25,419 bases of DNA, from assembly GCA_038209965.1 (NCBI GenBank), contig JBBQXF010000003.1, forward strand, positions 1 to 25,419, written 5' to 3'. The notes under the pieces are model-generated. The model made no database searches, had not been told where the DNA came from, and saw only the letters and a program-made list of their open reading frames with translations. Source of the DNA: Cytophagales bacterium. GTDB taxonomy: Bacteria > Bacteroidota > Bacteroidia > Cytophagales > Thermoflexibacteraceae. This document shows positions 945 through 24,031 of this stretch, piece by piece. The position numbers and the translations under genes are program-made. Within the stretch, counting starts at the first letter, position 1. The number at the start of each line of letters is the position of its first letter.

Positions 945-998
945 CAAGTGGTAAAAGGATGAGAACTAATTAACTAGTGATATGTAAAAATCTATTTA

Positions 999-3097: not shown

Positions 3098-3125
3098 TTC
3101 GGTTCATGAGTTAAACAAAAAACGT

Positions 3126-4283: not shown

Positions 4284-4809
4284 AATTAGCTGGATGATAC
4301 CCGACCAAAATGGTCAATTTTGCTCCGTAGCTGGTTCCGGTGCCCACGGCTGGGGACAAGCCCCCTTGCCATTAAAACAGCATCAACGGTCATGGTTGTC
4401 CACTTTATCCCGGATTGGCAAAGCCTTTGTTTGGCCAATGTTTTGCAAACTGCTCTGATCACGCTCGATGCTAATTTTACCTGTACTTAAGTTAATGCGC
4501 GGATTTTTTTGATAGCTTTTTGGTCGTCTATTTAAGTGCCTCTATATTAATTTTGTAGTCGTTTGTATCAAAACTGTTCAATGCCATGCAGGTCGCCTGC
4601 CTGCCAAGTTCATTTACCGCCAACCGCATTTGCGCCTCCATTGCTAGCATGCTTCTCGCCCGATCAAAGGTGATTTCCCACGTCAGTTGCCCATTGATCG
4701 TTTAAATAATTTTGCTTCCATTGTCCTATTGTTTTAGGTAAAGTTGTACCTTTCTTATATCTTTACATTGTAGCGGGGTGACACCCTATCAACTTTCAAC
4801 CGCAGCCTC

Positions 4810-8831: not shown

Positions 8832-9956
8832 AATAAGGGGAACCTTTATGGGGCATTATAGCGATGAACTACATTGATTGCAGGGTTGGAAGAGTGCTTC
8901 CAAGCAATGATTTCCGACCGAATGGAAAAAGGGAAGCTGGGCGAGTATGTTACGCAAAAAATACAAAAGGGCATTCTCCTTGTAAACCTATTTTTGAGTA
9001 CACAGAGACCAGTAGTTTGATATGTTTTAAGAGAACCAATACTGAAAAAATGAAAATTGACGGATTAGTCGTTCAGCTTAAACAATTCCTGAGTGTTACA
9101 AATTGAAAAACGCTAAGAAGCTAAAGGTGATCACAGAAGGGATGGAAGAATATCCGTGATAATAATTATTAAAACAATTTGACTTTTGAAGCATTTTTAC
9201 AATGACCAAGTGCGCCAACATAAAAATAAATCATATTGCTATCTGACTATTCATGAGTATGGTTGCTTTATTATCTATGCCCACCTTCCTCCTTTTTTTG
9301 TGCATAACAATAGAGGATACTTTTGAATCTATATCAGCTCAACCCCGCTTCATGCAACAAATCGAGCTAGAAGAGGGGGATTTGAACGACACCCCTGGCG
9401 TGTTTAAGCCCGCCAACTCCGGCCCGCCGATAACCCTGTGCCAGCGGATGCGCCCTAAAATCGTGGCCTTCTCATTTTCGTCCAAAAACGCACTCCATAC
9501 CAGCCACCAAGCATGTTTGGCCAGATAGTGAGTTTACAAACATTGCCGACACCACTATTCATTATCTGGGTTGTTTTGAGCAAGGGATCGTGGGTGGCAA
9601 TGAATTGAAGGTAGCAGTCTGACATAACTCTGCTGCTACAAAACCGCAAAATGTGGGAATCATGTGATTTATTTCCTTAAACATATAACTCATTTAGCAG
9701 ATCTTAGACTGACCTTTGCAGACTTGAAAACAAGTTGTTAGTATCTACAATAGACAAAAAAGACAGATAACAAGAACTATTGCTGACATAAATGCCAAAA
9801 TGCTTGGCGCAGAAGTTATTGCCACTGACTTTGTAAAAACCCTGAAATCACGGACAAACATAGGGAACGATGCCTTTTGAATACCTTTTTAATGAATAAT
9901 TAATTTTAGCTATTCACCCATTTTGTAGGCGATCAACCATTTGATCAATTAAAACC

Positions 9957-10169
9957 ATGAGGACTGTGAACGAATGGAACGAAAAAATCATGGCTATTAC
10001 CATGAAAATACAAAAGCAAAGCCCCGAGCTGATGAAGTTTTTGGGAGAAATGCCTGTCACAATTCCTGACGAGAAAAAGCCAGAAATTAGTGTAGCGGCT
10101 CTGAAAGGTTACTACGAATCGCTGAAAGACTTACTAAAGAAATACCAGTTGGAACAATCAACACGCTAA
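9957..10169 (+). CDS. Small hypothetical protein (70 aa), hydrophilic, immediately upstream of the ABC exporter genes
   Basis: ORF MRTVNEWNEKIMAITMKIQKQSPELMKFLGEMPV... ends 16 bp before the ABC ATPase start. I recognise no family and no double-glycine leader. It is retained mainly because of position and orientation. Confidence 0.35.
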   Translation: MRTVNEWNEKIMAITMKIQKQSPELMKFLGEMPVTIPDEKKPEISVAALKGYYESLKDLLKKYQLEQSTR

Positions 10170-10185
10170 AATTTATTATAAGAAC

Positions 10186-10896
10186 ATGGCCAACAAAATT
10201 GTAGCGCAAGTAATAGAAGCCGGGAAAACCTATAAAACCGGGGATACAGAGATTACTGCGTTACAGGCGTCGTCAATGGACATAAAATCGGGCGAATTGA
10301 CCCTCATTATTGGCCCATCAGGTTCGGGAAAAACGACACTTTTATCGCTCTTGGGCTGCGTCATTTATCCTTCTTTTGGTGAAGTGCTGATTGACGACGT
10401 TAAAGTAACCGGTTTGAGCGAAAAGGAATTGTCGATAATTCGATTGGGTAAAATCGGCTTTGTTTTTCAAACTTTCAACCTGATCGCCCCCCTGAACGCC
10501 CTTGAGAACGTAATGATGCCGATGCAATTGCAAAAAGTACCGCAAGGTGACGCCACCAAAAGAGCGGTCGAAGCATTGAAAAAAGTGGGAATGGGTGAAA
10601 AAACAAAAAGTTTGCCCAAACAACTTAGCGGCGGCGAACAGCAACGGGTAGCCATTGCCAGGGCGTTGGTTTCAAACCCGCAAATGATACTTTGTGACGA
10701 ACCCACGGCTTCGCTAGATGTGAAAAGTGTAGAAGTGGTAATGGAGGAATTAAGAAAATTGGCTTCACAAGGCAAAGCGGTGGTGGTGGTTACCCATGAT
10801 ACCCGGTTAACCCCATTTGCCAACAAAATCGTGTACGTAAACGATGGAATGGTTTCAGGCAAACCCTTTAAAGAAGAAGAATTTAAAGTAAAATAA
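10186..10896 (+). CDS. ABC transporter ATP-binding protein (MacB/LolD/DevA type, no fused TMD)
   Basis: Walker A GPSGSGKTTLL, ABC signature LSGGEQQRVAIARAL, Walker B ILCDEPTASLD, H-loop VVVTHD. 236 aa. Confidence 0.9.
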   Translation: MANKIVAQVIEAGKTYKTGDTEITALQASSMDIKSGELTLIIGPSGSGKTTLLSLLGCVIYPSFGEVLIDDVKVTGLSEKELSIIRLGKIGFVFQTFNLIAPLNALENVMMPMQLQKVPQGDATKRAVEALKKVGMGEKTKSLPKQLSGGEQQRVAIARALVSNPQMILCDEPTASLDVKSVEVVMEELRKLASQGKAVVVVTHDTRLTPFANKIVYVNDGMVSGKPFKEEEFKVK

Positions 10897-10897
10897 C

Positions 10898-11842
10898 ATG
10901 AAAGCAATTCACTATTTTATCATTTTTGGTTCGTTAATAATTAGTTGCGGAACCAAAAAGACCAAAGACAAAGCAGATAATACAATAAGAATTGCCAACG
11001 TAACACATGTCGTTGGTATTGGGAAGATAGAACCCGAAAGCGACATAATACAATTATCAGCCGAGGTGACAGGAATTATTGAAAAAATATATTTAAAAGA
11101 AAATGACACTGTTAAAAAAGGTGAAACTATTTTGGCATTGAAACATGGCATAGAAGCCGCTAATATTGCTGAAATAAAAAGTCAGCTCGCGACACAATCA
11201 GCACAAATAATCGCCAATGAAAGCAGCATAGAACTGGCTAAGATTAAATACGAAAATGCGAATAGCGAACTACTAAAATTGAGAAAATTGTTTGCAGATG
11301 GGGCTGGAACTCAGCAAGAAGTGGACGATGCCGAAACTGCAACAAAAACGTATTCGGCTGATATTGTGCAGCAAAAAGCATTGGTTGAAGTATCAAGAAG
11401 GAAATTGGCGGAAATAGAAAAGCAAATAATAGTATCAAACGAAAGCTTAAAACAACGGTTCATATCGTCACCTATCGACGGAGTTATTCTTGAACTTAGC
11501 GTTTTGATTGGTGGCGTAGTCAATAGCCAAACACCTTTCGCCCAATTGGCTTCAAATGGAAAAACCATTGCAGTTTGTGAAATAGACGAAATGTTCGCTC
11601 CCAAAATTAAGATAGATCAACGTGCAATCATTCGCAATGCCGGCAATTCAGATACGCTTTCCGTCGGTACCGTTTATTTTGTTTCAACTTTCCTCAAGAA
11701 GAAATCATTGTTTACCGATCAAGCTGGCGAAAAAGAAGACCGAAGGGTGAGAGAAATTAAAATAAGATTGAATAATCCCCCACAATTATTGCTAAATACA
11801 CGGGTTGAATGTATCGTATCGCTTACAGAAAACACTAAATAA
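10898..11842 (+). CDS. HlyD/DevB-family periplasmic adaptor (membrane fusion protein), lipoprotein
   Basis: Lipoprotein signal MKAIHYFIIFGSLIISCG. There is a long coiled-coil segment (AEIKSQLATQSAQIIANESSIELAKIKYENANSELLKLRKLFADGAGTQQEVDDAE) and a C-terminal beta-barrel-like region. Its start is one base after the ATPase stop. Confidence 0.8.
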   Translation: MKAIHYFIIFGSLIISCGTKKTKDKADNTIRIANVTHVVGIGKIEPESDIIQLSAEVTGIIEKIYLKENDTVKKGETILALKHGIEAANIAEIKSQLATQSAQIIANESSIELAKIKYENANSELLKLRKLFADGAGTQQEVDDAETATKTYSADIVQQKALVEVSRRKLAEIEKQIIVSNESLKQRFISSPIDGVILELSVLIGGVVNSQTPFAQLASNGKTIAVCEIDEMFAPKIKIDQRAIIRNAGNSDTLSVGTVYFVSTFLKKKSLFTDQAGEKEDRRVREIKIRLNNPPQLLLNTRVECIVSLTENTK

Positions 11843-11843
11843 G

Positions 11844-12977
11844 ATGTTTGTACTCAAAACTGCCTTAAAATTCATCCGGTTTGACAAAGCAAAAAGTATT
11901 GGCGTAGTAGTTGGTATTATGATTAGCACTTTTTTGATTGGGCAACAGTTAGGTGTTTTTATATTTTTGACAAATGCCATGCGGGCTTTAGTAAGCAATG
12001 TAAAGGCCGATATTTGGGTGGTGGACAACAAAACTAAAGACGTAAACCAATTGGGGAAATTAGACATCAGGGTTTTGCGAGAAGTACAGAGTTTGCCGGG
12101 CATAAAAGCCGCTTTCCCGATTTTGATAAGCGGTGGAGCAACCAATTTTGAAAACGGAACAAGCGGCAGCCTAACACTGATAGGGGTAGACATAGCCCAC
12201 CTCGACATTGTGCTGGATAGTTCCAAAATTATTGCCGGCAAACCCTTTGATTTACAAGCTGATGGTGCAGTAAGTGGTGAACTTTATGACCTAAAAAACT
12301 TGGGCGAAAACATCGATATCGGTACGACTTTTGAAATCAATGGCAAGCGAGCTTTTTTCGCCTTACAAACTAAAGGGTTTCGGGGCTTTGGAAACAGTTT
12401 TTGTGTAACGACCATCGAAAAAGCACGATTTTACGCCAACCAATCGGCCAATAGAATCAGTGCTGTTTTGGTAAAAATCCAACCCGACCAAAATGCGGAT
12501 AGTTTAGTGATAATGATAAACCAGTCAATAAGCGGTATAACCGCTTGGAAATCTAAAGATTTAGCTTATTCAACACTTCTGAAAATACTATCAAGTAGCG
12601 GCATTGCTCTAAGTACGGGCACGCTCATAACTTTTGCCTTGATTGCAGGATTTTTTATTATTGGTCTAACGATGTATTCCTCCGCCCTTGACCGTCTCAA
12701 AGACTATGGAACACTCAAAGCTATCGGGGCAAGCAACGGTTTTATCAGCAAACTGATACTGACCCAGGCAATAATTTTTGCTGTTGTGGGTTTTATCATT
12801 GCTTATTTTCTATTAGAGGGTTTCCGAGCAGGGGTGGCATCTTCAGGCCTGATCTTTAGCTTCTCACCTTTAATATTGGCAAGTATTTTTTCTATTATAA
12901 CGCTTATCTCAGTCGGTGGGGCATCATTTGCGCTCAATAGAATCAGCGGTATTGAACCTGCCTCAGTTTTTAGATAA
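11844..12977 (+). CDS. FtsX-family ABC permease (DevC/MacB-type, single FtsX unit with periplasmic domain)
   Basis: The start was chosen at MFVLKTALKFIRFDK, one base after the adaptor stop. The typical FtsX N-terminus, periplasmic domain and 3 C-terminal TMs (GLTMYSSALDRLKDYGTLKAIGAS...) are present. Confidence 0.8.
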   Translation: MFVLKTALKFIRFDKAKSIGVVVGIMISTFLIGQQLGVFIFLTNAMRALVSNVKADIWVVDNKTKDVNQLGKLDIRVLREVQSLPGIKAAFPILISGGATNFENGTSGSLTLIGVDIAHLDIVLDSSKIIAGKPFDLQADGAVSGELYDLKNLGENIDIGTTFEINGKRAFFALQTKGFRGFGNSFCVTTIEKARFYANQSANRISAVLVKIQPDQNADSLVIMINQSISGITAWKSKDLAYSTLLKILSSSGIALSTGTLITFALIAGFFIIGLTMYSSALDRLKDYGTLKAIGASNGFISKLILTQAIIFAVVGFIIAYFLLEGFRAGVASSGLIFSFSPLILASIFSIITLISVGGASFALNRISGIEPASVFR

Positions 12978-12982
12978 TAATC

Positions 12983-14326
12983 ATGAAAAACACAGCATAT
13001 CAAACACTTATTTTAATTTTTGCCCTAACTTTTCAATGTTTGGGGCAACAAAAAATCACGTTATCGCAAGCCATTCAAACGGCGATGAGCAATAGACAAA
13101 ATATTCAAGCGGGGAAAATAAATATTGCTTTGCAGCAACTTCAAACAGAGGCACTATACAAGAAATACTATCCGCAAATATCCCTCGACTATACCTATCA
13201 GTATAATCCAATTTTACAAAGTTCAATCTTACCGGTCGGCAAATTTGATCCGTCCTTGCCTTCCGAGGCTACCGAGAGAGTTCAATTTGGTACGACTTGG
13301 TCGCAGGCAGTTGGGCTTACGATAACGCAGCCCCTAATAGATTTTAGCATAAAAAAATACATTGCCGAAAGTCGTTTGCAAGAAAAAATAGCTGGTGTAA
13401 CCCAAGCCCAAATCGAGTATGAATTGGCTTATGAGGTAGCCACCAGCTACATTAATATTGGGCTTAACCAACAGCAAATTAGTTCAACAGTCTTAGACTC
13501 TGCTCGTACGTGGGTGAGTTATCAACTTCAAAAAGCCAGATTTGATGCTGGCAAACTATTAAAATCTGACCTATACAAAGCACTTATAAACCATAATAAT
13601 GCAAAACAAAAAATCAAAGACGCTATCTCAAAAGTAATTGAAAATAAAGTTTATTTATTATTTTTAATGGGTAACAAAAATGCTAATATGGAAATTGATA
13701 CCATATTTTTCAAGCAAGATTTAACATTTAAAAATAGCTCAATGAGTAGTTTAGATTCTATTCCAGTTTTCCAACAACTCATTTTCCAACAGCAACTTAC
13801 GGCACTTAAAATTCAAACTGAAAACACTAAATACCTACCTACAATTAGTTTAAGGGGCTTTTTGGGGGCAAACCAATTTACCAATAATTTTAATCCTATC
13901 GAAGCTAATTCATGGTTCGCGTACAGTAATATTGGCTTGGTGGTTAAACTGCCTATTTTAAGTGGCGAAGATAGAAACAGCATACGACAACAATTAAAAA
14001 TGCAAGAAAACCAATTAGGTTTACAAGCAAAAGATAAACAAGACCAATTTACGCAAGAAGCCACCATTGCGAATTTGAAAATAAGTAATTTTCAAATTCA
14101 AATGAAAACCCTGAAAGAGAATTTATTCCTTTCACATCAATCTCTACTTATTGTTCAAGAAAGAGTGGAAGCAGGGCAACAGACCGCCTCTTATTTAAAC
14201 AACGAAGAATTAGAACTGCAACGCATCGCCTATGACTACATCAACATTCAAAAACAGACTTGGGTTTATTGGTTGGATTACCTCAAATCATCAGGTATGC
14301 TAAGTCTGCTTTGGCAGAAAAACTAA
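12983..14326 (+). CDS. TolC-family outer-membrane efflux protein
   Basis: Signal peptide, then ITLSQAIQTAMSNRQNIQA (the canonical TolC/OEP opening). The body is a repeated coiled-coil/beta-barrel pattern, 447 aa, starting 5 bp after the permease stop. Confidence 0.8.
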   Translation: MKNTAYQTLILIFALTFQCLGQQKITLSQAIQTAMSNRQNIQAGKINIALQQLQTEALYKKYYPQISLDYTYQYNPILQSSILPVGKFDPSLPSEATERVQFGTTWSQAVGLTITQPLIDFSIKKYIAESRLQEKIAGVTQAQIEYELAYEVATSYINIGLNQQQISSTVLDSARTWVSYQLQKARFDAGKLLKSDLYKALINHNNAKQKIKDAISKVIENKVYLLFLMGNKNANMEIDTIFFKQDLTFKNSSMSSLDSIPVFQQLIFQQQLTALKIQTENTKYLPTISLRGFLGANQFTNNFNPIEANSWFAYSNIGLVVKLPILSGEDRNSIRQQLKMQENQLGLQAKDKQDQFTQEATIANLKISNFQIQMKTLKENLFLSHQSLLIVQERVEAGQQTASYLNNEELELQRIAYDYINIQKQTWVYWLDYLKSSGMLSLLWQKN

Positions 14327-14339
14327 ACTTTTGGCGGAT

Positions 14340-15228
14340 GGAATGGGAGTGATTACAGAGAAAAAAGCCTTTCAACGACCGTTTAACAAAAGTGTTGAGT
14401 ATTTAAGCACCATTTAAAGTGTTTATCTGCTTATCGAAATCGACATGGTTTAACCCATAAAGTATTATCTAATCATAAAACCATAAAGCCATGCCAGCTA
14501 ATGTATATCCCATTAAACACGCGTGTTCGCTGCCGATTAGAAAAATCAATGAGATACTACAAACCAATATGTAAACTAGTTTGGGCGAAAGTGATATTGC
14601 CAACAGGATAAAAATGTAGGGCTTTAATCGATGTAAAGAATAACAGAAAAAAGTATTTTTCAATATTTTTTGACAATTCAAAAGCCCCATTATTATATCA
14701 TTAGTAGGTGCCACCGATTTGAATTTTTCTAAGAAATTACAAGCTCAGCGCTCATTGAAAGCATTTAAAAGCATGAATATGAGTCCTTCAAAATTTTGGC
14801 GCGATAATTACTTGTATGAAGGGCCGTCTAAAAAATTACCCTCAATGATGTTCTAGCGTTGGAGCTCAGTCATGTGGTACAACTTAATGGGCGATTATTG
14901 GAAATTGATCAATTTGAAATGAATGAATCATCGTTGACTGGTGAACCACTGCCAATTATTAAAGAATTAGAAGTTTTAGAAGAAAATGTTAATCTTACTG
15001 AGCAACTCAACATGGTTTTAAAGGCACGTCAGTGATGAAAAAGAATCTGCTAGTTCTTATTATGGGAACAGCCTTGCGCACTGAATTAGGTAAAATTACC
15101 ACTTTGGTAGAAATTGCGGAGAGAGTTGATACGCCACTCGAGAAAGGATTACAAAGTTTAGCTACGAAATTAATGTTGATTACAGCCAGTTTTGCTGCAA
15201 TTTTTATTATTAAAGGTCTGCTATAAGG
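14340..15228 (+). pseudogene. Remnant of a P-type cation-transporting ATPase (N-terminal third only; several frameshifts/stops, C-terminal ~600 codons deleted)
   Basis: Fragments appear in three frames: ...SLKAFKSMNMSPSKFWRDNYLYEGPSKKLPSMMF* (compare ALEALKKL..AKVLRDGK..EIPAKELVPGDIV); ...LEIDQFEMNESSLTGEPLPIIKE (the actuator-domain SALTGES motif); and MMKKNLLVLIMGTALRTELGKITTLVEIAERVDTPLEKGLQSLATKLMLI (compare GTGMNTEIGKIAKL...TPLQKKLD). No phosphorylation-site DKTGT region follows. Confidence 0.7.
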
Positions 15229-15269
15229 CAAGGAAATATGCCTTCTTGTTGAAACCGTTATTGCTATTA

Positions 15270-15310
15270 CCAAAGTCACAATCCTCGAGGCAACGTTGGT
15301 TCACGTTGGC
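15270..15310. other. 15-bp inverted repeat (ATCCTCGAGGCAACG ... CGTTGGCTCGAGGAT, 1 mismatch) with 8-nt loop, followed by T-rich tract; terminator-like hairpin at the truncation point of the ATPase remnant
   Basis: Read directly from the sequence. The inner CAACGTTG is itself palindromic. Confidence 0.4.
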
Positions 15311-15426
15311 TCGAGGATAGTCCGAGTATTTTTGATTCAATTATTTAAGCTAGTTTTAAGATTATTATTGATTACAAATCATAAAAGTAATCATCAAAAC
15401 CACTCATTCATAATAGACTTAGCATT

Positions 15427-15828
15427 ATGCAGTTATCCCAACAAATAGCTTTCCTTTTTCTACTTGCAATCCCTGTTGCCTGTATTGCGTGGACGGTCAC
15501 ACACGAGGAAATATTCAAAGAACCAAGAGATTTTTGTAATAAAAAATCCAAAGAAAGTGAAACCATTGTTCAGCGTAAGTTTTTCTATTTGTTTACTTGT
15601 GAATATTGTTTTAGCCATTATATTGCCCTGTTTTTTTTAATCATCACAAAATATCATTTACTTTATGACGATTGGCGCGGCTATTTGATTTCGGGTTTTG
15701 CCTTAGTTTGGGTCGCCAATGTATATATGAGTCTGTTCGGATTTATTCGCATAGGAATGAAACGGGAAAAAATGGATATAGCAACGGAAGAATCAAAGTT
15801 AAAAATTGAGAAAGAAAACTGTAAATAG
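15427..15828 (+). CDS. Small hypothetical membrane protein (133 aa, 3-4 TM, CxxC pair)
   Basis: Hydrophobic segments FLFLLAIPVACIAW, YIALFFLIITKY, GFALVWVANVYMSLFGF, a CEYC motif and a Lys/Glu-rich tail. I recognise no family. Confidence 0.45.
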   Translation: MQLSQQIAFLFLLAIPVACIAWTVTHEEIFKEPRDFCNKKSKESETIVQRKFFYLFTCEYCFSHYIALFFLIITKYHLLYDDWRGYLISGFALVWVANVYMSLFGFIRIGMKREKMDIATEESKLKIEKENCK

Positions 15829-15829
15829 T

Positions 15830-16378
15830 ATGGCGCAAACGCAAAATAGGCAAAAGTCAAAAACAGTTGCCATCATTGTTGCGCACCCCGACGACGAAAC
15901 GCTGTGGGCTGGCGGTACAATCCTATTCCATCTAGGGCAACCGCACCAAATTTTTTATTTGAAGGGCTGTTTTAAGTACAGGTTATTTTTGTGGGCTTTC
16001 TTTCTTTTTCTTCGCAGGCTCATTTTACCAGGGTCTTTTTTGAGCAAATATAAAGCCCATTTTCGGGTAAACTGGGTTCCCCTTTCATTTCTGCCTGATT
16101 TGAGAAAGGGAAACTCCTGTACTGCAAAACCGGTGGAGGGTATATCTCCTTTGATCTTTATTGGATTGACTTTTTGTATTTCAAGCGGGCATCAAGGTCA
16201 GATTTGCAAGACCATAAACAACAGCACAGGCTTAAAAACAGAGATAAATGTTGAGATAATTTTTCGTGACTACTGGGATTGGGGGTTGAAAATGATATAT
16301 CCCAATGCTGCGCAGCCTTTGGTTGACGACAAAACAACTTTGTCCCACTGCCAAAAGCTGTCATTCCACGTTAAATGA
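15830..16378 (+). pseudogene. PIG-L/LmbE-family N-acetylglucosaminyl deacetylase remnant (only the first ~55 codons are intact)
   Basis: KTVAIIVAHPDDETLWAGGTILFHLGQPHQIFYL is the PIG-L catalytic N-terminus (AHPDDE). The downstream translation is low-complexity noise in every frame, so the gene is disrupted. Confidence 0.55.
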
Positions 16379-16615
16379 TTGTTAAGTTTTTGCGGGGGGC
16401 AGGCACCCACGGCAGATCCCACGGCTGGCGGTAGTGATAGCGGTTATTGATAAATAGGGGTGCGCCCAGTTCCCTGAACTGGGCCAAACAGCGGTAAAAC
16501 ACTCCGCTCGGATTGGCCAACCAGTTTGGCTAATTGGGCGGCATTGCCCCGTCGGCCTTGGAGGATCAGGCCATGCACTACCGATAAACAGTAATAAGTC
16601 GCAAGTTGGACCATT
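16371..16615 (-). mobile_element. Frameshifted N-terminal remnant of an IS630-family-like transposase (HTH region only)
   Basis: The minus-strand translation reads MVQLATYYCLSVVHGLILQGRRGNAAQLAKLVGQSERSVLPLFGPVQ.., then, after a +1 shift, ..QFRELGAPLFINNRYHYRQPWDLPWVPAPRKNL*. The HTH, followed by an R-F-R-E-x-G box and a PxxRxxxP segment, resembles IS630 N-termini. Only about 80 of about 340 codons are present, and there is no DDE domain. Confidence 0.35.
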
Positions 16616-17175
16616 GGTCAAGAACAACAGATGGTTCATGGAAGTCAGACGTTAGATCATCGGTGCAGATTATAACAAATGTAAGGACTCTCTGGCAAAA
16701 AAACAACCCGGCAAAAGTTTTTTTGGTGAATGGTACGGAATTTTTAGCGTTACCCAATGAAATAATAGCCTCGTCGTTCGAGGTAAAGTTGATTTGACCG
16801 TCAATATTTAGCAAAACCGCTGGCGATCCGGGCAGTTTTGGTTTATCTGACCTCGATTGCCAACCCTATCGGCCTATCCTTTGTATTGATAATTAAGCTA
16901 TTTTGGGTAAGTTTAACCATCGGTTCAATTTTGCCAACCTGCTTGCCCCGTTGTTGGGTGATTGGGGAAGTCGGGAAGCTTGATAATAAGTTGTCTTGCA
17001 TTTAAATTATACTGGTGACAACCAATAGAGTTTTCGTTAGAGCAATTACAAACCAGAGCAATTTGTTGACACTGACTGATTTCAATATCAACGGGCGAAA
17101 AGAGTCCAATTCGATACCCAAAAAAGGAGTAAATTTTAATTTGGGATGTTATCATTCACTAATAGATAAACCCCC

Positions 17176-17808
17176 ATGCTCTTCTTTTTTCTTTGCATCT
17201 GCCTGATCAGTGCGATAGGTTCGTTGCAGCCTGGCTTGGTCAATTTGGCCGTCATCCAAACGGTATTGCAGCGGGGCACGTTCCCGGCCGTCTGCCTAGC
17301 CATTGGTGGTTGCCTGCCCGAGATGCTCTACGGTTGGCTCGCCGTTCAGGCCCACGGCGGGATGGGCGGCTGGGCCAGCCAAATTGTCCAGCATCCCGCC
17401 GCCCAATGGATAGCCTTGGGGGTATTGGCGGGTGCGGGGATATACTATTTGTGTCGGCCCGCCGTGGCTTGGGGAGTGGAACAGCGCCCGGCCCGGCCCT
17501 TGGCTGCTTTTGGCAAAGGACTGCTATTGGCTTTGTACAATGCCCAGTTGGTCGTTTTCTGGATATTGGTGTTGGCGTTTGTGCAGGTGCACTGGCCACC
17601 ACCAAACGTAATGACCAGATCAATGTTTCAAATCGCCTTTGCCTTGGGAAGTGGCTTGGGCGCCCTTTTTTTCTTGCTTTCGTTGGTTGCTTTGGTTAAT
17701 CGGTACAATGAAAAGATTAAAACGGCATTTGGCCACCGGGCCAATCAATGGACCGGAATTGTGCTGCTCCTAATTGCCGCTTGGGGAATTTTACAGGCGG
17801 TCATTTGA
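17176..17808 (+). CDS. LysE/RhtB-family amino-acid exporter
   Basis: 210 aa with 6 TM. The N-terminal SLQPGLVNLAVIQTVLQRG matches the LysE PGP(N) motif region. GC is about 62%. Confidence 0.7.
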   Translation: MLFFFLCICLISAIGSLQPGLVNLAVIQTVLQRGTFPAVCLAIGGCLPEMLYGWLAVQAHGGMGGWASQIVQHPAAQWIALGVLAGAGIYYLCRPAVAWGVEQRPARPLAAFGKGLLLALYNAQLVVFWILVLAFVQVHWPPPNVMTRSMFQIAFALGSGLGALFFLLSLVALVNRYNEKIKTAFGHRANQWTGIVLLLIAAWGILQAVI

Positions 17809-17826
17809 ACACCAAAACCCTTACAG

Positions 17827-18507
17827 ATGGAAACCAAATATTGGTACTTGCAAAACCACACATTGTTCGACCAACTGAGCCAGCAAGAAATTGCTGAGTT
17901 GAACATTATTTCTTGCTTCAAAACGGCCAATAAAAGTGAATATGTTTACTTGGGTGGCCGCGATCTAACCCGCCTGTATATCCTCAAAAAAGGCCGGGTA
18001 AAAATTGCTTTCCAGAGCGAATCGGGCGAGGAAGTGGTGATGGAAATCCTCAAAGACGGGGATATTTTTGGGGCCGTGGGCTTGGAAGTGCAACCCAATC
18101 ACCACCAAGAATATGCCCAAGCCCTTACTGATGTGGCACTGTGCAGTTTTACCATCCCCGATTTTGTGAGCGTTATGCAGAAAAATCCCGAATTGGCGAT
18201 TCGCTACAGCAAAAAATTGGGGGAGAAAGTCAATACGGTACAAGGCAAATTTGCCAATATCATCTTCAAGGACTCCCGCGAACGGATTGTCAATTTCTTC
18301 CGGCTCAATGCCTTGCACGAGGGCAATCAGCAAGCCGACGGATCCTATTTGCTCGATATGTACCTTACCCACCAAGACATTGCCCACTTCACGGCCGTAT
18401 CGCGGCAAACCGTCACTACTATTATCAACCAACTCATTGTTCAACAGCTCATTGTTTATGTGGGCCGCCGCAAGGTGGTTATCCCCAACCTAAACAAATT
18501 GGGTTGA
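17827..18507 (+). CDS. Crp/Fnr-family transcriptional regulator (cNMP-binding domain + C-terminal HTH)
   Basis: The beta-roll region is RLYILKKGRVKIAFQSESGEEVVMEILKDGDIFGA. The C-terminal HTH is LTHQDIAHFTAVSRQTVTTIINQL. Confidence 0.85.
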   Translation: METKYWYLQNHTLFDQLSQQEIAELNIISCFKTANKSEYVYLGGRDLTRLYILKKGRVKIAFQSESGEEVVMEILKDGDIFGAVGLEVQPNHHQEYAQALTDVALCSFTIPDFVSVMQKNPELAIRYSKKLGEKVNTVQGKFANIIFKDSRERIVNFFRLNALHEGNQQADGSYLLDMYLTHQDIAHFTAVSRQTVTTIINQLIVQQLIVYVGRRKVVIPNLNKLG

Positions 18508-18517
18508 TGCCCAATGG

Positions 18518-18691
18518 CTATTGACGGCCCTGTTTTTTTTGTTGGCCTGGTGCATGGGACTTGGCCGATTTGGAACCGTAAATTTTCTTGGCCTGCCCCG
18601 GCGGTACGATGGGCCGGGTGCTGAACGGGGGCCGGGTACAGCCAACGGCCAAAAGGAGCAATAGGGCAAAGATTACGTTTTTCCGGTTCAT
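18518..18691 (-). CDS. Small putative lipoprotein (57 aa from the internal Met)
   Basis: MNRKNVIFALLLLLAVGCTRPP... is a signal peptide with a lipobox (LAVGC). The ORF is short and basic, so confidence is low. Confidence 0.3.
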   Translation of the reverse strand: MNRKNVIFALLLLLAVGCTRPPFSTRPIVPPGQAKKIYGSKSAKSHAPGQQKKQGRQ

Positions 18692-18941
18692 GTTATGGGG
18701 ATGATGATACTTGTAACGCAAAAACCGGGCTTGAAGGTTTCAGGATAAATCTATGTGAAAGATAGGGCTCGCCAACGGATGCCGGACACCATTGTAGCAG
18801 TAAAAAAGGGTATCCGAAAAAGCCGAAGCTTCAGTAGATTGCAAGTCACCGGTATTGTTCAGGTCAGTGCAGTTCCAATCATCGACTCACCGCCAATCTG
18901 ATAGCTGGGCAATTTTAATCGACCAATTGGGCAAGGGATCA

Positions 18942-20195
18942 TCACCCCCTCGCCAACACCTTGGAGATATCGATCCGGTAGGCATTGATGGCCGGGATCG
19001 CGGCGGCCACCACCCCGATGAGCGCGCTCAGGCCCAGCCAATAGAGTTCTTGGGGCAAAAACAGCCAGCCGGTCAGTTGGGCTTGCTCGGCTTCTTCGGC
19101 AAAGCGGCCGAGCAGTTCGGTAGCAGTGTGGCCCAGCAATATCCCCAAACTGACCCCAAGTAGGGTGATGACCACCCCCTCGGTGATGACCAACGCCAGC
19201 AGGCCGCCCGGTGAGGATCCAAGGGCGCGCATCACGGCCAGATCGTAGCGACGTTCTTTGAGTGCGTTGTAAAGGGCGATAAAAATGCTTAATACGGCGA
19301 TAAGTACCACCAAATAGCCAAAATACTCCAGCAGGGTAAGGCCGATGCCCAAGATGGAAAACAAGCGGTTGACCTCAAAAGCGGGCGAGGCCGCCTGCAT
19401 ATTGGTCTGGCTGTTGACAAAGCGCGGGAGCGTAATGGCCGCCATGGGGCTGCGGAACTTGATCAGCATAGTGGTCAGCTCTTTTGTGGTGTCGCCCACG
19501 GGCAAGCCAGTGAGTGAATCGGTCAACACCGCGTGTTCGTGCCCACTTTGGGCAGTGAGGTCGGCTGCTTCGCCGTGGCCTTCGTGCACGGCCCACACAC
19601 TTTGGACGTTGGTCAGGATCAGGTTGTCCAGTGCGGTGCCGGTGGGCTTGAGCAGGCCCACCACCGTGTAGGGATGGTCGGCGTGCACATCGCCCACGCC
19701 CGCGCCCATGCCGTGTGCCCCCGCAAAGCTGGCCCCGATTTTAAGCCCGGTTGCTTGGCCGACTTCGGCCCCGATGGTAGCCTCGAGGGTATTGGCCCAC
19801 CAAGCCCCGGTTTGCAGTTCGGCCCCGTAGAGTTCAGGATATTTTCGGTTGGTGCCCACTATACGGAAGCCATTGTAGCTGTCGCCCAGGGCCAGCGGGA
19901 TCACTGACTTCACCATTCGGTTGCGGGCCAACAGGTCGGCTTCGCTCAGTTTGATATTGCCCGTCGGGTAGTCGATATGGAACACACTGGACAGGATCAG
20001 TTGCATCGGGCTGCCCTTGGCCCCCACCACCAGATCGATCCCCTTGGCATTTTTGGTCAATTTTTCTTCTAGTTGGTGACTCACCAACAGCAACAAAATA
20101 ATGACTGCCGTGCCCAGGGCCAGGATCAACATATTGAGGGCATTGCTCAGGGGCTTGGCCTTGATGTATTGAAAACTGAGGGAGAACAAGTTCAT
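18942..20195 (-). CDS. FtsX/MacB-like ABC transporter permease (single FtsX unit with large periplasmic domain); no ATPase gene adjacent
   Basis: The start is at MNLFSLSFQYIKAKPLSNALNMLILALG (a typical FtsX N-terminus). A periplasmic domain of about 250 aa follows, then 3 C-terminal TMs (LTLLEYFGYLVVLIAVLSIFIALYNALKERRYDLAVMRALGSS). Confidence 0.8.
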   Translation of the reverse strand: MNLFSLSFQYIKAKPLSNALNMLILALGTAVIILLLLVSHQLEEKLTKNAKGIDLVVGAKGSPMQLILSSVFHIDYPTGNIKLSEADLLARNRMVKSVIPLALGDSYNGFRIVGTNRKYPELYGAELQTGAWWANTLEATIGAEVGQATGLKIGASFAGAHGMGAGVGDVHADHPYTVVGLLKPTGTALDNLILTNVQSVWAVHEGHGEAADLTAQSGHEHAVLTDSLTGLPVGDTTKELTTMLIKFRSPMAAITLPRFVNSQTNMQAASPAFEVNRLFSILGIGLTLLEYFGYLVVLIAVLSIFIALYNALKERRYDLAVMRALGSSPGGLLALVITEGVVITLLGVSLGILLGHTATELLGRFAEEAEQAQLTGWLFLPQELYWLGLSALIGVVAAAIPAINAYRIDISKVLARG

Positions 20196-20387
20196 TCGCT
20201 GGCCGGGTAAAAGGTGGATGATGATCAGTGGCAAAGATGAGCAGGAAATAGTTGCCGACAAAGCAATTGATAGTTGGGCGGTTGTCTTTTGCTAAATCCC
20301 TAGTCCCGGACTTTGCATGGGTGCGTCGTTCTGGGTAGATCGGGGCTTGCGCAGCCAGCTGTCCTGAACCAATTGGGCAACCACTGC

Positions 20388-20810
20388 TTAAGCTGCCGCT
20401 TTCTTAAAAACTACCAGCTTTTTCATGATGAAATTCCAGATCACCACTGCCCCGATGGTGAGCAACTTGGCCAAGTGCTCATTGATCTGGGCTTCATACA
20501 CAAGCCGGGGCAGCATCAATTCGTTGATCCACAGCCCCACCAAAGATACTACGGTAAAAATAAGGAACTCGAGTTGGCCCGAATGCGCCCCGCTGCCAAA
20601 TACCCAAACCCGGCTTAACCAATAGTTGGCAATGAGTACGATGGTGAACGCAATCCGGTTGGCGACCATCAAATCTACGCCACAATAATCCTTCAGAAAG
20701 AACAAGATGCTCATTTCAACGATCACCGAAGCAACTCCTAGAATAACAAAGCGAAAAAGTTGGGAATAAAAAGGTTTTTCGGTGATCAGTTGCCGGATTT
20801 TGTCAATCAT
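20388..20810 (-). CDS. GtrA-family membrane protein (polysaccharide/lipid-linked sugar translocation)
   Basis: About 140 aa with 4 TM. FVILGVASVIVEMSILFFL...ANRIAFTIVLIANYWLSRVWVF matches the GtrA family pattern. The start was chosen at MIDKIRQ. Confidence 0.65.
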   Translation of the reverse strand: MIDKIRQLITEKPFYSQLFRFVILGVASVIVEMSILFFLKDYCGVDLMVANRIAFTIVLIANYWLSRVWVFGSGAHSGQLEFLIFTVVSLVGLWINELMLPRLVYEAQINEHLAKLLTIGAVVIWNFIMKKLVVFKKAAA

Positions 20811-20964
20811 TAGTGATAAATAAAGATAAAATAGTTGCAAAAATAAGCAGGAAATGTGGTTTGGCCTCGATCTCCATCAATTTTAACAATCATTTATTGT
20901 TTAGCTTTACAGTTGAACTCCTTAAATCTTTACTCATCCATTTAGCAACGCTGCCCTAAATTCA

Positions 20965-22335
20965 ATGCCCGAACTACCCATGCCAGTTCCTGAACCCAAT
21001 GATGAGCCCCAAGAATGGCTCAAAGAATTGGCCACCAAGAGTTGGGAACCAGAATTGATCATTTCTGCGGCTTCCATTTACCTCATCTCCAGCTTGCCCG
21101 AATGGATTGACGGGGTCTATCTGCATTATGAAATCAACTGGGCCCAAAGTGGCTATCTTGAGGCGGCTGCCGGCGTGGGCATAGAACTGTTGGCTTCGCT
21201 GGGCCTCCTGTTCTTCAAATGCGCGGCCTATATGCTAACGGCCGCTTTTGTGGCCCATTTTACGCTCCGAGCGTTTTGGGTGGCCACCATCGGGCTGCTC
21301 TCGGTATTCCCCCAAGACATTGAGTATGATCGGCTGCCCAAGTTGGGCGACCATGCCAAAAAAGCAATGCGGATCCAATTGGGCACTTTTCAATCATTCA
21401 TCGTGCGGCTGGATCGGACATGCAGTACTTTGTTGTCTATTGCGTTCCTGATTGCGTTGTCCATTGCCAATATTTCCATCATTTACTTGGCCATGTTTAT
21501 TTTGCTCTCGTTCGTGCGGCTCGTCGTGCCGATCGGGATCATGGAGGAGTATGAGGTGGTGCTCTATTTTGTCTTTCTGGCCCTTACCCTTTTACCTGCG
21601 GTGTTCATGGGGTTGGGCAACACGAAATGGGCAAAAAAACGACCTGATCTGGAAACCCGGCTCTTTCGCTGGCAGTGGGCAGCTACGGGCATCTTGTTCC
21701 CTTTCACCCGCGACCCCTTCACCCGGCTGGGCTATATGTTCCAATCCAACATTTCCCGCTCGGCCTATAACCGTTACAAGCTATTGATAGGGGTAACTTT
21801 GTCTGTCTTGTTGCTCTTCTTCAAGCTTCAGCACGATGCTGGCAATCGCCTCGACACCCGCACGTATTATGGCACCGATGAGCCGTACCGCGTGTACCCT
21901 GTCCATTACGACAACCTGCGGACCAAGGGAGAGTTGATCCGCACCGCCAGCATCCACACCGATGTGCTCAAGGACAATTACCTCAAGCTGTTCATCGCGT
22001 ATCCCAAAATGCTCGATGCGGTGCTCCGTTCCCGCTGGCCCGAACCGATATTGCCCGATAACATGCCCCGGGAGCAGGCGCGGGCGAAACGCAATGAAGC
22101 CAATCTGGCCGGCTTTTCGGCCTATTTTAAGATCTATGTCAACGATTCGCTCCGTACCGATCCCGGCTTTTTGTGGCATACCCACCCCAATGCCAACGAG
22201 CGCGGGGTGCTGGCCTATTTGAGCGCGAAGGGCTTTCGGCTCGGCCCCAACCAGTTGCGTGTCACTGCTCCGCGCACCGACTCGGTGGGCAAAGAGCAAA
22301 GGGTGACTGTGATCCCGTTTTGGTACATGCCCTAA
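20965..22335 (+). CDS. Hypothetical polytopic membrane protein (456 aa) with ~190-aa soluble C-terminal domain; no recognisable family
   Basis: The ORF is clean in a 58% GC region with several TM helices (LIISAASIYLISSL, LLASLGLLFFKCAAYMLTAAFVAHF, LLSIAFLIALSIANISIIYLAMFILLSF, VVLYFVFLALTLLPAVFMGL). The C-terminal domain is rich in R/Y/P/W. Confidence 0.6.
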   Translation: MPELPMPVPEPNDEPQEWLKELATKSWEPELIISAASIYLISSLPEWIDGVYLHYEINWAQSGYLEAAAGVGIELLASLGLLFFKCAAYMLTAAFVAHFTLRAFWVATIGLLSVFPQDIEYDRLPKLGDHAKKAMRIQLGTFQSFIVRLDRTCSTLLSIAFLIALSIANISIIYLAMFILLSFVRLVVPIGIMEEYEVVLYFVFLALTLLPAVFMGLGNTKWAKKRPDLETRLFRWQWAATGILFPFTRDPFTRLGYMFQSNISRSAYNRYKLLIGVTLSVLLLFFKLQHDAGNRLDTRTYYGTDEPYRVYPVHYDNLRTKGELIRTASIHTDVLKDNYLKLFIAYPKMLDAVLRSRWPEPILPDNMPREQARAKRNEANLAGFSAYFKIYVNDSLRTDPGFLWHTHPNANERGVLAYLSAKGFRLGPNQLRVTAPRTDSVGKEQRVTVIPFWYMP

Positions 22336-22363
22336 TAGGTCGGAAGTCGGGAAGCGAGTCTAT

Positions 22364-22386
22364 CTTCCGCCAAAAAGGCGGGAAAG
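22364..22386 (+). terminator. Hairpin TTCCGCC-aaaaa-GGCGGGA followed by GGTTTGGTTTGG; candidate terminator for the 20965-22335 gene
   Basis: Read directly from the sequence. The stem is 7 bp including one G-U pair. Confidence 0.35.
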
Positions 22387-22412
22387 GCGGTTTGGTTTGG
22401 CCAAAAAGGATC

Positions 22413-22446
22413 GACCCAAACGGGGGATTGTCACTTTGTTTGGGTC
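22413..22446 (-). terminator. 9-bp perfect stem (GACCCAAAC/GTTTGGGTC) with 16-nt loop, followed on the minus strand by GATCCTTTTTGG; candidate terminator for the anti-sigma gene
   Basis: Read directly from the sequence. It lies in a convergent intergenic region. Confidence 0.45.
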
Positions 22447-22491
22447 AAAAAAAGCCGATCTGGGTATCCTGTTTGGCCCAATACTGGACAA

Positions 22492-23349
22492 TCACAATGG
22501 GTACAACGCGCCCACGCCCTCGGCAGCCTTGGCCCGCACGATTTTGGGGGCGGCCTCATCCTCCATCAGTTGTTGCATGGGGCCAAGTGCCCTTTTTTCT
22601 TGCCAATCGATCAACAGGGCAATGAGGGTAATCTGGATCATTGGCTCGGTCTGTTTGGCAAATGATGCCACCACCGCCAACCGGAGTTGGGGCTGATCGC
22701 CAAACCGGGCCAGTGCCTCGGCGGCGGCCAACCGCACGTTGATGTTGGGGTCAAAATTCAGGGTATTGAGCAGTACCCTGGTGATTTTTTCATCTACTTC
22801 CTCCATTTCATTGGCGTAGCCCACGGCCTTGATCCGATCGCTGGCCGAATTTTGTTTGAGCAAATTGAGCATCACCATTTGGTTGGATGCCTGCACTTCG
22901 GCCCGGAGGCGATCCACTTCGCGCTCGGTCGCCTGTAACCGCCCGCGCAGGGTCAACTGGCCCAACCAGAAAGCCCCGATCAACAGGGCCACCGATGCCG
23001 CAATTGGTAGCCACACTGACCGCTTGGGGGCCCAGCGCTGATCCTTGATTTGCGCTGAAACCTTTTTGCCCCCGGTTTCGGCTGAAAGGTGCTTGCTTGG
23101 CCCATTGTCGGCTATTTTCTGTTTTTCGCCGGCCAACAATTGGGAAAAATTTGCCCTTAACTCATCAGTGGGCACGACACTTTCGGGTTGGGCAAATGCC
23201 GCCAGCAATTGCTTTAATGCCTCATATTCACGTTGGTGAATAGTGCTTTCGGCCATTTGCCGCTCCACCATTTCCTTCATTTCCCCGGTCAGTTTGCCAT
23301 CGATCAGGTCGATCATCAGGCTTTGCCATTCTTCTTCGGACAGTTTCAT
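22492..23349 (-). CDS. Membrane-spanning anti-sigma factor with C-terminal HEAT-repeat domain
   Basis: It starts 13 bp downstream of the ECF sigma gene. The N-terminal anti-sigma-like segment is SEEEWQSLMIDLIDGKLTGE. There is a single TM (VWLPIAASVALLIGAFWLG), a coiled-coil, then HEAT-like repeats (VRLAAAEALARFGDQ...LRLAVVASFAKQ..., IVRAKAAEGVGAL). Confidence 0.65.
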   Translation of the reverse strand: MKLSEEEWQSLMIDLIDGKLTGEMKEMVERQMAESTIHQREYEALKQLLAAFAQPESVVPTDELRANFSQLLAGEKQKIADNGPSKHLSAETGGKKVSAQIKDQRWAPKRSVWLPIAASVALLIGAFWLGQLTLRGRLQATEREVDRLRAEVQASNQMVMLNLLKQNSASDRIKAVGYANEMEEVDEKITRVLLNTLNFDPNINVRLAAAEALARFGDQPQLRLAVVASFAKQTEPMIQITLIALLIDWQEKRALGPMQQLMEDEAAPKIVRAKAAEGVGALYPL

Positions 23350-23362
23350 CAGGATCGTTGGG

Positions 23363-23893: not shown

Positions 23894-24031
23894 TGCATCG
23901 GGCTGATTAATCAAAATTGACTTGCCACTAGAATACCCACCAAATCCGAAAAGGTTACACGCCGATGACAACTAGGTAGCCACTTTGGTTTGGTTGGCCA
24001 CTCGGCTGCGCCCCGAATCACCGGTTGGCGC

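What the first reader, a model, noticed from the sequence alone, without database searches (positions are those of the whole stretch)
16371..17175. Abrupt composition breakpoint coinciding with an IS630-like transposase stub
GC jumps from ~35% to ~58% within a few bases at about 16,385 (…ccacgttaaatgattgttaagtttttgc|ggggggcaggcacccacgg…). It stays high for the remaining 9 kb, which changes codon usage and ORF-shadow density. The first ~200 bp of the GC-rich side encode, on the minus strand, a frameshifted HTH N-terminus resembling IS630-family transposases (…AAQLAKLVGQSERSV…FRELG…). The rest of the IS is missing. This looks like a recombination or insertion junction between DNA of different origins. 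In a metagenome-derived sequence it could alternatively be an assembly chimera.
Basis: partly seen in the sequence, partly recalled or inferred. Interest (0 to 1): 0.55.

Follow-up and report, generated by a model that had tools for sequence, protein, structure and literature searches.

The report
GC shift at an ISAs1 scar
Two stretches of Bacteroidota DNA with very different base composition meet at a 138-base remnant of an ISAs1 insertion sequence, not at an IS630 stub, and because only this one contig contains the join it is about as likely to be an assembly mis-join as a real rearrangement, so the finding is ordinary.

Summary
The GC shift is real: 39.6% GC on the left and 52-53% on the right, with GC3 of 0.31-0.53 versus 0.58-0.74. 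It is not a step at 16385 that stays high. GC falls back to 40% over 16615-17175, and the best statistical change point is about 17194.

The "IS630 stub" (16371-16614, minus strand) is a small standalone HTH_11-type gene. It is intact (64-86 aa) in relatives and frameshifted here by one extra base. Its distant relatives are small HTH proteins and WYL regulators, and none is a transposase.

Comparison with related assemblies puts the real breakpoint 300-450 bp further left. A PIG-L gene stub (15830-15932) abuts the last 138 nt of an ISAs1 element (15933-16070). That remnant is fused to the first ~67 codons of a lipoprotein gene (16071-16265), which belongs to the right-hand Cytophagales-like locus.

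In two other metagenome assemblies the two sides are not joined: the left runs into a longer ISAs1 copy, and the right has a different flank. No other assembly shows this join. Relatives of each side keep their own GC over 18-21 kb.

Verdict: a gene-decay zone bounded by an IS remnant. The join is most likely (about 50%) an assembly mis-join through the IS repeat, and otherwise a genuine IS-mediated rearrangement. Low interest.

The parts
1..15932 (.). Left block, 39.6% GC. Genes: SOUL, DUF326, DUF6544, GH15, fused trehalose-6-P synthase/phosphatase, an ABC-HlyD-FtsX-OEP efflux operon, P-type ATPase fragments, a 133-aa membrane protein and the PIG-L stub.
   Evidence: Pfam. GC and GC3. 99.0% identical to L005 and L010, whose match to the window ends at 16070. 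Relatives L015 and L016 are 37-39% GC over up to 18 kb.
15830..15932 (+). 5' stub (about 34 codons) of a PIG-L family deacetylase gene, cut off by the ISAs1 terminus.
   Evidence: Pfam PF02585 matches only residues 23-49 of the ORF, profile positions 2-28 of 129, E=7e-4. The alignment shows that the sequence shared with L007 and L008 starts at GGGCAACCG, about 15933.
15933..16070 (-). 3'-terminal remnant (138 nt) of an ISAs1-family insertion sequence. It encodes the last ~36 aa of the transposase (...RKWALYLLKKDPGKMSLRRKRKKAHKNNLYLKQPFK, stop at 15955-15957). This is the true structural breakpoint.
   Evidence: 91-94% nt identity to the IS ends in L005, L010, L007 and L008. The longer element in L010 and L005 hits NF033564, ISAs1 family transposase, at 133 and 86 bits against a cutoff of 70. 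tblastn of ISAs1 C-terminus P0309 gives 85% identity over 16074-15958, E=9e-18. L005 and L010 diverge from the window at about 16067-16071. L013 and L014 homology stops at 16071.
16071..16265 (-). 5' fragment (first ~67 codons, with a lipoprotein-type signal peptide LSLCCCLWSC) of a lipoprotein gene that is 377 aa in the Cytophagales MAG. It is truncated at 16070/16071 and additionally frameshifted by a 1-nt deletion at about 16190.
   Evidence: tblastn of the L013 377-aa protein: aa 28-67 match 16188-16069 at 80% identity, and aa 2-55 match 16265-16104 in another frame.
16371..16614 (-). It is frameshifted by one extra base in the A/T run at 16496-16499.
   Evidence: Intact 76-77 aa in L008 and L009, 86 aa in L011, 64 aa in L013. 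DNA alignment shows GTGTTTTACC versus GTGTTTACC. The same insertion occurs in L001 and L004. Between distant homologues, substitutions by codon position are 13/9/30, so it is coding.
16615..17175 (.). AT-rich (39.8% GC) divergent intergenic region between the HTH gene and LysE. It is native to the right-hand locus.
   Evidence: GC. Partly alignable with the Cytophagales MAG: L013 5660-6552 aligns to window 16960-16071 at 78-83%. No Rfam family matches.
17176..25419 (.). Right block, 53% GC. Genes: LysE, Crp/Fnr, MacB/FtsX, GtrA, a 456-aa protein of unknown function, a HEAT anti-sigma-like protein, an ECF sigma factor and a 7TMR-DISM histidine kinase.
   Evidence: Pfam. 99.9% identical to L001 and 98.8% to L008. 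Gene order matches 'MAG: Cytophagales bacterium' JAYUVL010000004.1 at 88-90% nt identity.

Best explanation
The composition shift marks the meeting point of two compositionally distinct pieces of Bacteroidota DNA. They do not meet at 16385. They meet at a 138-nt remnant of an ISAs1-family insertion sequence (15933-16070) inside a 2.8-kb zone of decayed genes.

Shown by comparison. On the left, an ISAs1 element inserted into a PIG-L gene, leaving a 34-codon stub. On the right, the native locus reads LysE <- | -> small HTH_11 regulator -> 377-aa lipoprotein. That lipoprotein gene was cut after about codon 67 and fused to an internal point 138 nt from the IS end. The 'IS630 stub' is the small HTH regulator gene. 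In this strain it is inactivated by a 1-nt insertion, probably because its downstream partner gene is already destroyed.

Inferred. The 39% GC left block and the 53% GC right block are linked through this 138-nt repeat only in this contig. I consider an assembler mis-join through the shared IS fragment the single most likely origin of that link. The two joined pieces would come either from two co-occurring populations or from two replicons of one organism.

I put the anatomy at about 0.9 confidence and the mis-join reading at about 0.5. The confidence value given for this explanation refers to the mis-join.
For: Anatomy:
- L005 and L010 (99.0% identical to the left) share PIG-L'|IS-terminus with the window, then continue into a longer ISAs1 transposase gene and diverge at about 16070.
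- L013 and L014, from a Cytophagales MAG, align from 25414 down to exactly 16071 and continue with an intact 377-aa lipoprotein gene.
- The HTH ORF is intact in L008, L009, L011 and L013.

Mis-join:
- In two independent assemblies that contain both sides (JGI 3300007517: L005 and L007; ENA ERZ27246954: L010 and L008), the right side's IS remnant is preceded by an unrelated flank of 57-119 nt, not by the PIG-L stub.
- The junction-spanning 182-aa product occurs only on the 89,419-bp NCBI contig. The 40-mer scan found only L007 in metagenome contigs and nothing in reference genomes.
- Logan contigs L001 and L009 end inside the IS remnant.
- Non-homologous DNA of each side's relatives keeps that side's GC: L016 is 39% over 18 kb, and L014 is 52% over 21 kb including the DNA beyond the junction-equivalent point. 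Raw tetranucleotide correlations are 0.96-0.98 and 0.85-0.95 within each lineage, against 0.48-0.62 between the sides.
- GC3 ranges do not overlap.
- Named homologues of the left-side OEP are Chitinophagales and Sphingobacteriales, while the right side is Cytophagales.
- No tRNA, integrase or conjugation genes occur in the 25 kb.
- The two IS-end types share exact runs of 35-60 nt, enough for a de Bruijn mis-join at small or medium k.
Against: - Left and right co-occur in every sample set examined: SRR21228674, the SRR269880xx series, ERZ27246954 and 3300007517.
- Their divergence from the ERZ27246954 strain is nearly the same on both sides, 99.0% versus 98.8%. This is what one genome would give.
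- GC-normalised tetranucleotide profiles of the two sides correlate at 0.77-0.82, as well as the two halves of the left side correlate with each other at 0.81.
- At the diagnostic SNP at about 15965, only 32 nt from the IS terminus, the window already has the base seen in the right-side-type copies. A simple crossover between the copies as seen in other samples would therefore have to fall in a very short interval.
- No read data or coverage values could be examined, and the assembly method of the source contig is unknown.
Confidence: 0.5

Rival explanations
1. The join is real and arose inside one genome. Homologous recombination between two ISAs1 copies, by inversion, deletion or plasmid-chromosome cointegration, linked left|PIG-L'|IS to IS-end|lipo'|right. 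The strains in ERZ27246954 and 3300007517 carry the un-recombined or reciprocal arrangement: PIG-L'|full IS, plus X-flank|IS-end|lipo'.
For: The window's two junctions match those found separately in L005/L010 and in L007/L008. This is exactly the relationship expected of reciprocal products of one IS-IS crossover. Both sides co-occur in every sample set with matching strain divergence. GC-normalised tetranucleotide profiles are similar. The IS remnant carries private SNPs, as a real copy would. The Cytophagales relative itself has genes ranging from 38% to 63% GC.
Against: It requires one genome to hold blocks of at least 16 kb and at least 20 kb that differ by 13 GC points and about 30 GC3 points, with each block's relatives keeping their own composition. 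No second assembly shows the join. The homology available for a crossover is only 138 nt at about 91-94% identity.
Confidence: 0.3
2. The join is real and marks a recent horizontal transfer. One of the two blocks is a large foreign segment that entered the other lineage's genome, with the ISAs1 element at its border.
For: There is a strong, gene-wide GC and GC3 discontinuity. An IS remnant and truncated genes sit exactly at the boundary. Named homologues point to different orders for the two sides.
Against: Both blocks look like ordinary chromosomal gene sets, and the right block keeps the gene order of a Cytophagales MAG for more than 9 kb. There is no integrase, tRNA, conjugation gene or direct repeat. 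Near-identical copies of both blocks exist unjoined in two other assemblies, so an extra donor population at 99% identity would be needed.
Confidence: 0.13
3. One reading: a truncated IS630-family transposase N-terminus at 16371-16640 sits at a breakpoint at 16385.
For: There is a sub-threshold Pfam HTH_29 hit (14-20 bits against a cutoff of 28.1), a fold that IS630 transposases also use. The ORF is indeed frameshifted.
Against: HTH_11 scores as well or better. All ~200 profile hits are 64-140-aa proteins or HTH_11+WYL+WCX regulators, and none has a DDE domain. The gene is complete (start to stop) in four relatives. It is conserved in place in a relative whose homology runs uninterrupted through 16385 down to 16071. 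No inverted repeats flank it.
Confidence: 0.02

Closest known systems
ISAs1-family insertion sequences (H-repeat-associated / YbfD-YdcC-type transposases), as solo terminal remnants
   Same: The 138-nt segment is 91-94% identical to the 3' end of an element whose transposase passes NCBIfam NF033564. It encodes the conserved C-terminal tail, and it truncates a host gene exactly at its terminus.
   Different: Only the last 138 nt are present. The inner end is fused to an unrelated gene fragment, so it is a deletion scar rather than a mobile element.
Inter-genome or repeat-mediated chimeric contigs in metagenome assemblies
   Same: A short repeat is shared by two sequence contexts, composition changes abruptly across it, other assemblies break or branch at the same repeat, and only one contig carries the join.
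   Different: Not demonstrated. Co-occurrence and equal strain divergence of the two sides are also compatible with a single genome.
HTH_11 winged-helix domain of YafY/PafBC-type WYL regulators
   Same: The sequence pattern matches (…GNAAQLAxxxxQSERSVYRCLxxLRELGxPL…). Distant family members pass the HTH_11 threshold. The long relatives are HTH_11+WYL+WCX.
   Different: This protein is only 64-86 aa, has no WYL or WCX domain, and is itself below the Pfam threshold. It is a standalone HTH, and here a pseudogene.
IS630/Tc1-mariner family transposases
   Same: They also have an N-terminal winged HTH (HTH_29), for which there is a weak sub-threshold hit.
   Different: There is no DDE_3 domain, no longer relatives of that type, no terminal inverted repeats, and the ORF is complete as a small gene.

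Membership tests
IS630-family transposase | DDE_3 catalytic domain downstream of the HTH, or relatives that have one | tested here: not met
   The ORF ends after 76-86 aa in intact relatives. Among about 200 profile hits, none examined has a DDE domain, and the long ones are WYL regulators.
IS630-family transposase | N-terminal HTH matching IS630-type models above threshold | tested here: not met
   HTH_29 scores 14-20 bits against a cutoff of 28.1. There is no NCBIfam hit.
IS630-family transposase | Terminal inverted repeats with TA target duplication | tested here: not met
   The repeat finder on 15700-17300 found no inverted repeats flanking the ORF.
ISAs1-family insertion sequence | Transposase matching the ISAs1 model (NF033564) | tested here: met
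   The homologous longer element in L010 and L005 scores 133 and 86 bits against a cutoff of 70. The window remnant is 94% nt identical to its 3' end and 85% aa identical to ISAs1 C-terminus P0309. The 57-aa window fragment alone is too short to hit the model.
ISAs1-family insertion sequence | Complete element with both ends and an intact transposase | tested here: not met
   Only 138 nt are present, and no other ISAs1 fragment occurs in the window.
HTH_11 / YafY-type WYL regulator | HTH_11 domain above the Pfam threshold | tested here: inconclusive
   Close homologues score 17-21 bits against a cutoff of 25. More distant family members score 28-51 bits.
HTH_11 / YafY-type WYL regulator | WYL (and WCX) ligand-sensing domain | tested here: not met
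   The protein is 64-86 aa with no further domain. Only the rare 331- and 338-aa relatives have WYL+WCX.
Genomic island acquired by site-specific integration | Integrase, tRNA or tmRNA target, flanking direct repeats | tested here: not met
   No tRNA or tmRNA occurs in the window. Pfam scans found no integrase. Only 12-13-nt direct repeats consistent with chance were found.
Assembly chimera | No reads or pairs spanning the join, and a coverage step at the repeat | not testable with these tools
   No read data are available. Indirect evidence only: the join is absent from all other assemblies and contradicted by two of them.

The most novel reading that the evidence does not exclude
The join is genuine: in this uncultured Bacteroidota strain, a crossover within a 138-nt ISAs1 remnant fused a ~39% GC replicon or segment to a ~53% GC Cytophagales-type chromosome region. 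This would give a natural snapshot of IS-mediated cointegration or rearrangement between compositionally very different DNAs, with strain-level polymorphism for the event across sites.
Probability: 0.4. Interest if true: 0.25.

Novelty: already known. Interest (0 to 1): 0.12.

Why it matters
The main value is quality control. The contig should not be used as evidence of gene linkage or horizontal transfer across 15.9-16.1 kb until reads confirm the join, and the source MAG may mix two populations.

It also corrects three likely annotation errors:
- The transposase remnant at the junction is ISAs1-family, and the supposed IS630 stub beside it is not a transposase at all.
- The 182-aa product called over 15830-16378 is an artefact that reads through three unrelated fragments.
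- The HTH gene and the lipoprotein fragment are pseudogenes.

If the join is real, it is a routine example of IS-mediated genome rearrangement.

Tried and rejected
- Pfam and NCBIfam scans of the stub, frame by frame and frameshift-corrected, gave only a sub-threshold HTH_29 hit and no transposase model.
- A profile search of PDB sequences with the HTH alignment found nothing.
- An Rfam scan of 14300-17300 found nothing.
- An exact 40-mer scan of GTDB reference genomes found nothing.
- I could not extend the alternative (X-flank) configuration further left.
- Stored FASTA headers carry no coverage values.
- GC-normalised tetranucleotide profiles did not discriminate one genome from two.
- SNP patterns inside the IS remnant gave no clean crossover point.
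- I considered and dropped the idea that 16071-16385 is a diverged continuation of the ISAs1 transposase. It is instead the lipoprotein 5' fragment plus spacer.

Full report
**Observation**

A sliding GC profile and finer 100-nt windows show that the window is compositionally two-part. Positions 1-15932 are 39.6% GC and 16071-25419 are 52.1%. Third-codon-position GC is 0.31-0.53 for all 12 left-side genes and 0.58-0.74 for all 7 right-side genes. A two-segment likelihood model is strongly favoured, with LLR about 200.

The change is not a step "within a few bases at 16385 that stays high". 16371-16614 is 53.7% GC, the next 560 nt (16615-17175) fall back to 39.8%, and GC rises for good only at the LysE start (17176). 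The maximum-likelihood change point is after 17194 (LLR 205.9, against 196.8 at 16385 and 188.8 at 16070). The local rise at about 16385 is just the 3' end of one small GC-rich ORF.

**What the "IS630 stub" is**

It is broken by one extra base in a homopolymer run, GTGTTTTACC versus GTGTTTACC, at + strand 16496-16499. The same lesion is present in L001 (SRR21228674) and L004 (SRR19962013), so it is a real allele rather than a consensus error.

A search of 5.8 billion proteins with the corrected peptide found only small proteins:
- 76 and 77 aa, intact, in L009 and L008.
- 86 aa (P0036).
- 64 aa (P0037).

Between distant homologues, substitutions by codon position are 13/9/30, with 20 synonymous and 14 non-synonymous codon changes. 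It is therefore a genuine coding gene. Among the closest strains, non-synonymous changes predominate, which suggests relaxed selection.

Pfam gives only sub-threshold hits: HTH_11 at 17-21 bits (cutoff 25) and HTH_29 at 14-20 bits (cutoff 28.1). A profile search of 1.84 billion cluster representatives returned about 200 hits, almost all 64-140 aa and matched over their N-terminal ~60 residues. The sampled hits are HTH_11 proteins, several above threshold. The rare long ones (331 and 338 aa) are HTH_11+WYL+WCX regulators, and none has a transposase domain. No inverted repeats flank the ORF. The IS630 assignment is therefore not supported. This is a standalone HTH_11-type small regulator gene, and here it is a pseudogene.

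**It is native to the right-hand locus**

In a related genome (NCBI GCA_043754075.1, "MAG: Cytophagales bacterium", contig JAYUVL010000004.1; L013 and L014), the order is HEAT protein, 456-aa protein, GtrA, MacB/FtsX, Crp, LysE, then the small HTH gene divergently. After that come a 377-aa gene, 212- and 241-aa genes, and proteins with the T9SS Por_Secre_tail domain. Nucleotide homology to the window (83-90%) runs from 25414 down through 16385 and stops at exactly 16071. Window 16069-16265 on the minus strand encodes the first ~67 residues of that 377-aa protein, at 80% identity and with a lipoprotein-type signal peptide. It lies in two frames because of a 1-nt deletion near 16190.

**The real breakpoint**

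The relevant contigs are these:

| Locus | Source | Matches window | What it shows |
|---|---|---|---|
| L005 | JGI 3300007517 | 5427-16070, 99.0% | Then continues into different sequence |
| L010 | ENA ERZ27246954 | 5428-16070, 99.0% | Same as L005 |
| L007 | JGI 3300007517 | 15932-17565 | Preceded by an unrelated flank of 57 nt |
| L008 | ENA ERZ27246954 | 15932-25419 | Preceded by the same unrelated flank, 119 nt, hairpin-containing |
| L001 | Logan SRR21228674 | 16037-25419, 99.9% | Contig ends inside the IS remnant |

The sequence that L005 and L010 continue into encodes, on the minus strand, an ISAs1-family transposase. NF033564 scores 133 bits for L010's 182-aa ORF and 86 bits for the C-terminal part, against a cutoff of 70. 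The window shares only the terminal 138 nt of that element (15933-16070), at 91-94% identity to all copies. This segment encodes …RKWALYLLKKDPGKMSLRRKRKKAHKNNLYLKQPFK* with its stop at 15955-15957. It is 85% identical to the C-terminus of ISAs1 transposase P0309, E=9e-18.

To the left of the IS terminus, the window, L005, L006 and L010 all have the first 34 codons of a PIG-L deacetylase gene. That gene was interrupted by the IS.

The anatomy is therefore:

…133-aa membrane protein | PIG-L' (15830-15932) | ISAs1 3' remnant (15933-16070, minus) | lipoprotein' (16071-16265, minus) | HTH pseudogene (16371-16614, minus) | intergenic | LysE…

P-type ATPase fragments at 14835-15181 extend the decay zone to about 2.8 kb.

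**Is the left-right join real?**

In two independent assemblies that contain both sides, the sides are not joined as in the window. L007 and L008 have an unrelated flank in front of the IS remnant, whereas L005 and L010 have PIG-L' followed by a longer IS. The window equals the left half of one configuration plus the right half of the other, joined inside the 138-nt repeat.

The window comes from an 89,419-bp NCBI contig that carries the exact proteins of both sides. The only product spanning the join (182 aa, 15830-16378) exists on that contig alone. A 40-mer just right of the IS remnant found only L007 in JGI metagenome contigs and nothing in GTDB representatives. The Logan contigs L001 and L009 end inside the IS remnant.

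Relatives of each side keep that side's composition in DNA that is not homologous to the window. L016 is 39.4% GC over 18 kb and L015 is 37%, whereas L014 is 51.8% over 21 kb. Raw tetranucleotide correlations are 0.96-0.98 for left with L016 and 0.85-0.95 for right with L014, against 0.48-0.62 for left with right.

Named homologues of the left-side OEP are Chitinophagales and Sphingobacteriales at about 50% identity. The right side is Cytophagales-like. No tRNA, integrase or conjugation gene is present. The two IS-end types share exact runs of 35-60 nt, so a de Bruijn mis-join is technically feasible.

**Counter-evidence**

- Both sides co-occur in all sample sets examined, including the 99.9-100% identical strain in SRR21228674 (L001 and L017).
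- Divergence from the ERZ27246954 strain is almost equal on the two sides, 99.0% versus 98.8%.
- After GC normalisation, the tetranucleotide profiles of the two sides are as similar (0.77-0.82) as the two halves of the left side are to each other (0.81).
- The SNPs inside the IS remnant give no clean crossover.
- The configurations seen elsewhere are exactly the reciprocal products expected of one IS-IS recombination, so a genuine strain-specific rearrangement or plasmid-chromosome cointegration remains a live alternative.
- I had no reads or coverage values.

**Verdict**

The anatomy is well supported, at about 0.9 confidence. For the origin of the join I estimate:
- Assembly mis-join through the IS repeat: about 0.5.
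- Genuine IS-mediated rearrangement within one genome: about 0.3.
- Recent horizontal transfer: about 0.13.
- The original IS630 reading: about 0.02.

All of these are well-known phenomena. The result is mainly a caution for anyone using this contig and a correction of the IS family and breakpoint position.

Noticed in passing
window 4250-8750: A GC-elevated stretch (44-50%, GC3 0.47-0.53) holding a GH15 glucoamylase/trehalase-like gene (4810-6606) and a fused trehalose-6-phosphate synthase/phosphatase (6603-8831). It lies inside an otherwise ~35% GC left block, so the left side is itself mosaic.
   Followed up: partly
window 14835-14966 and 15017-15181 (+): Two fragments in different frames, about 31% identical to residues 120-226 of an 830-aa P-type cation ATPase in L016. 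This is a pseudogene remnant upstream of the 133-aa membrane protein. In L016 the homologous 140-aa gene follows an intact ATPase.
   Followed up: partly
window 9957-10169 (+): A 70-aa ORF that is 41% identical to the first 68 residues of a 364-aa alpha/beta hydrolase in L016. It is possibly another truncated gene, just upstream of the efflux operon.
   Followed up: no
window 15830-16378 (+): A 182-aa ORF, present as a called product on the NCBI source contig. It reads through the PIG-L stub, then the antisense of the IS remnant, the lipoprotein fragment and the spacer, ending where the HTH gene's stop codon lies on the opposite strand. It is almost certainly not a real protein.
   Followed up: yes
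window ~16190 and ~16400-16412 (minus-strand genes): The window/L001 strain has a 1-nt deletion in the lipoprotein fragment. It also has a 12-nt segment (GCCGTGGGATCT, an imperfect tandem repeat of the neighbouring 12 nt) in the tail of the HTH gene that is absent from L007-L009.
   Followed up: partly
window 20965-22335 (+): A 456-aa protein with no Pfam or NCBIfam hit. It is conserved at 86% aa identity, and in the same position, in the Cytophagales MAG (L013/L014), between GtrA and a HEAT-repeat/zf-HC2 anti-sigma-like gene.
   Followed up: no
L008 1-119 (also L007 1-57): The alternative left flank of the IS remnant contains a 58-nt imperfect palindrome (…TTCGCCTGAAGGC…GCCTTCAGGCGAA…). Both contigs end shortly beyond it, which suggests a further repeat or a terminator-like element.
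   Followed up: no
L011 6001-7338, L013 6001-7487: Small standalone HTH_11-like genes (64-86 aa) are consistently followed by a gene for a secreted protein or lipoprotein (298 or 377 aa, unrelated to each other). About 200 cluster representatives of such mini-HTH proteins exist, and their function appears uncharacterised.
   Followed up: partly
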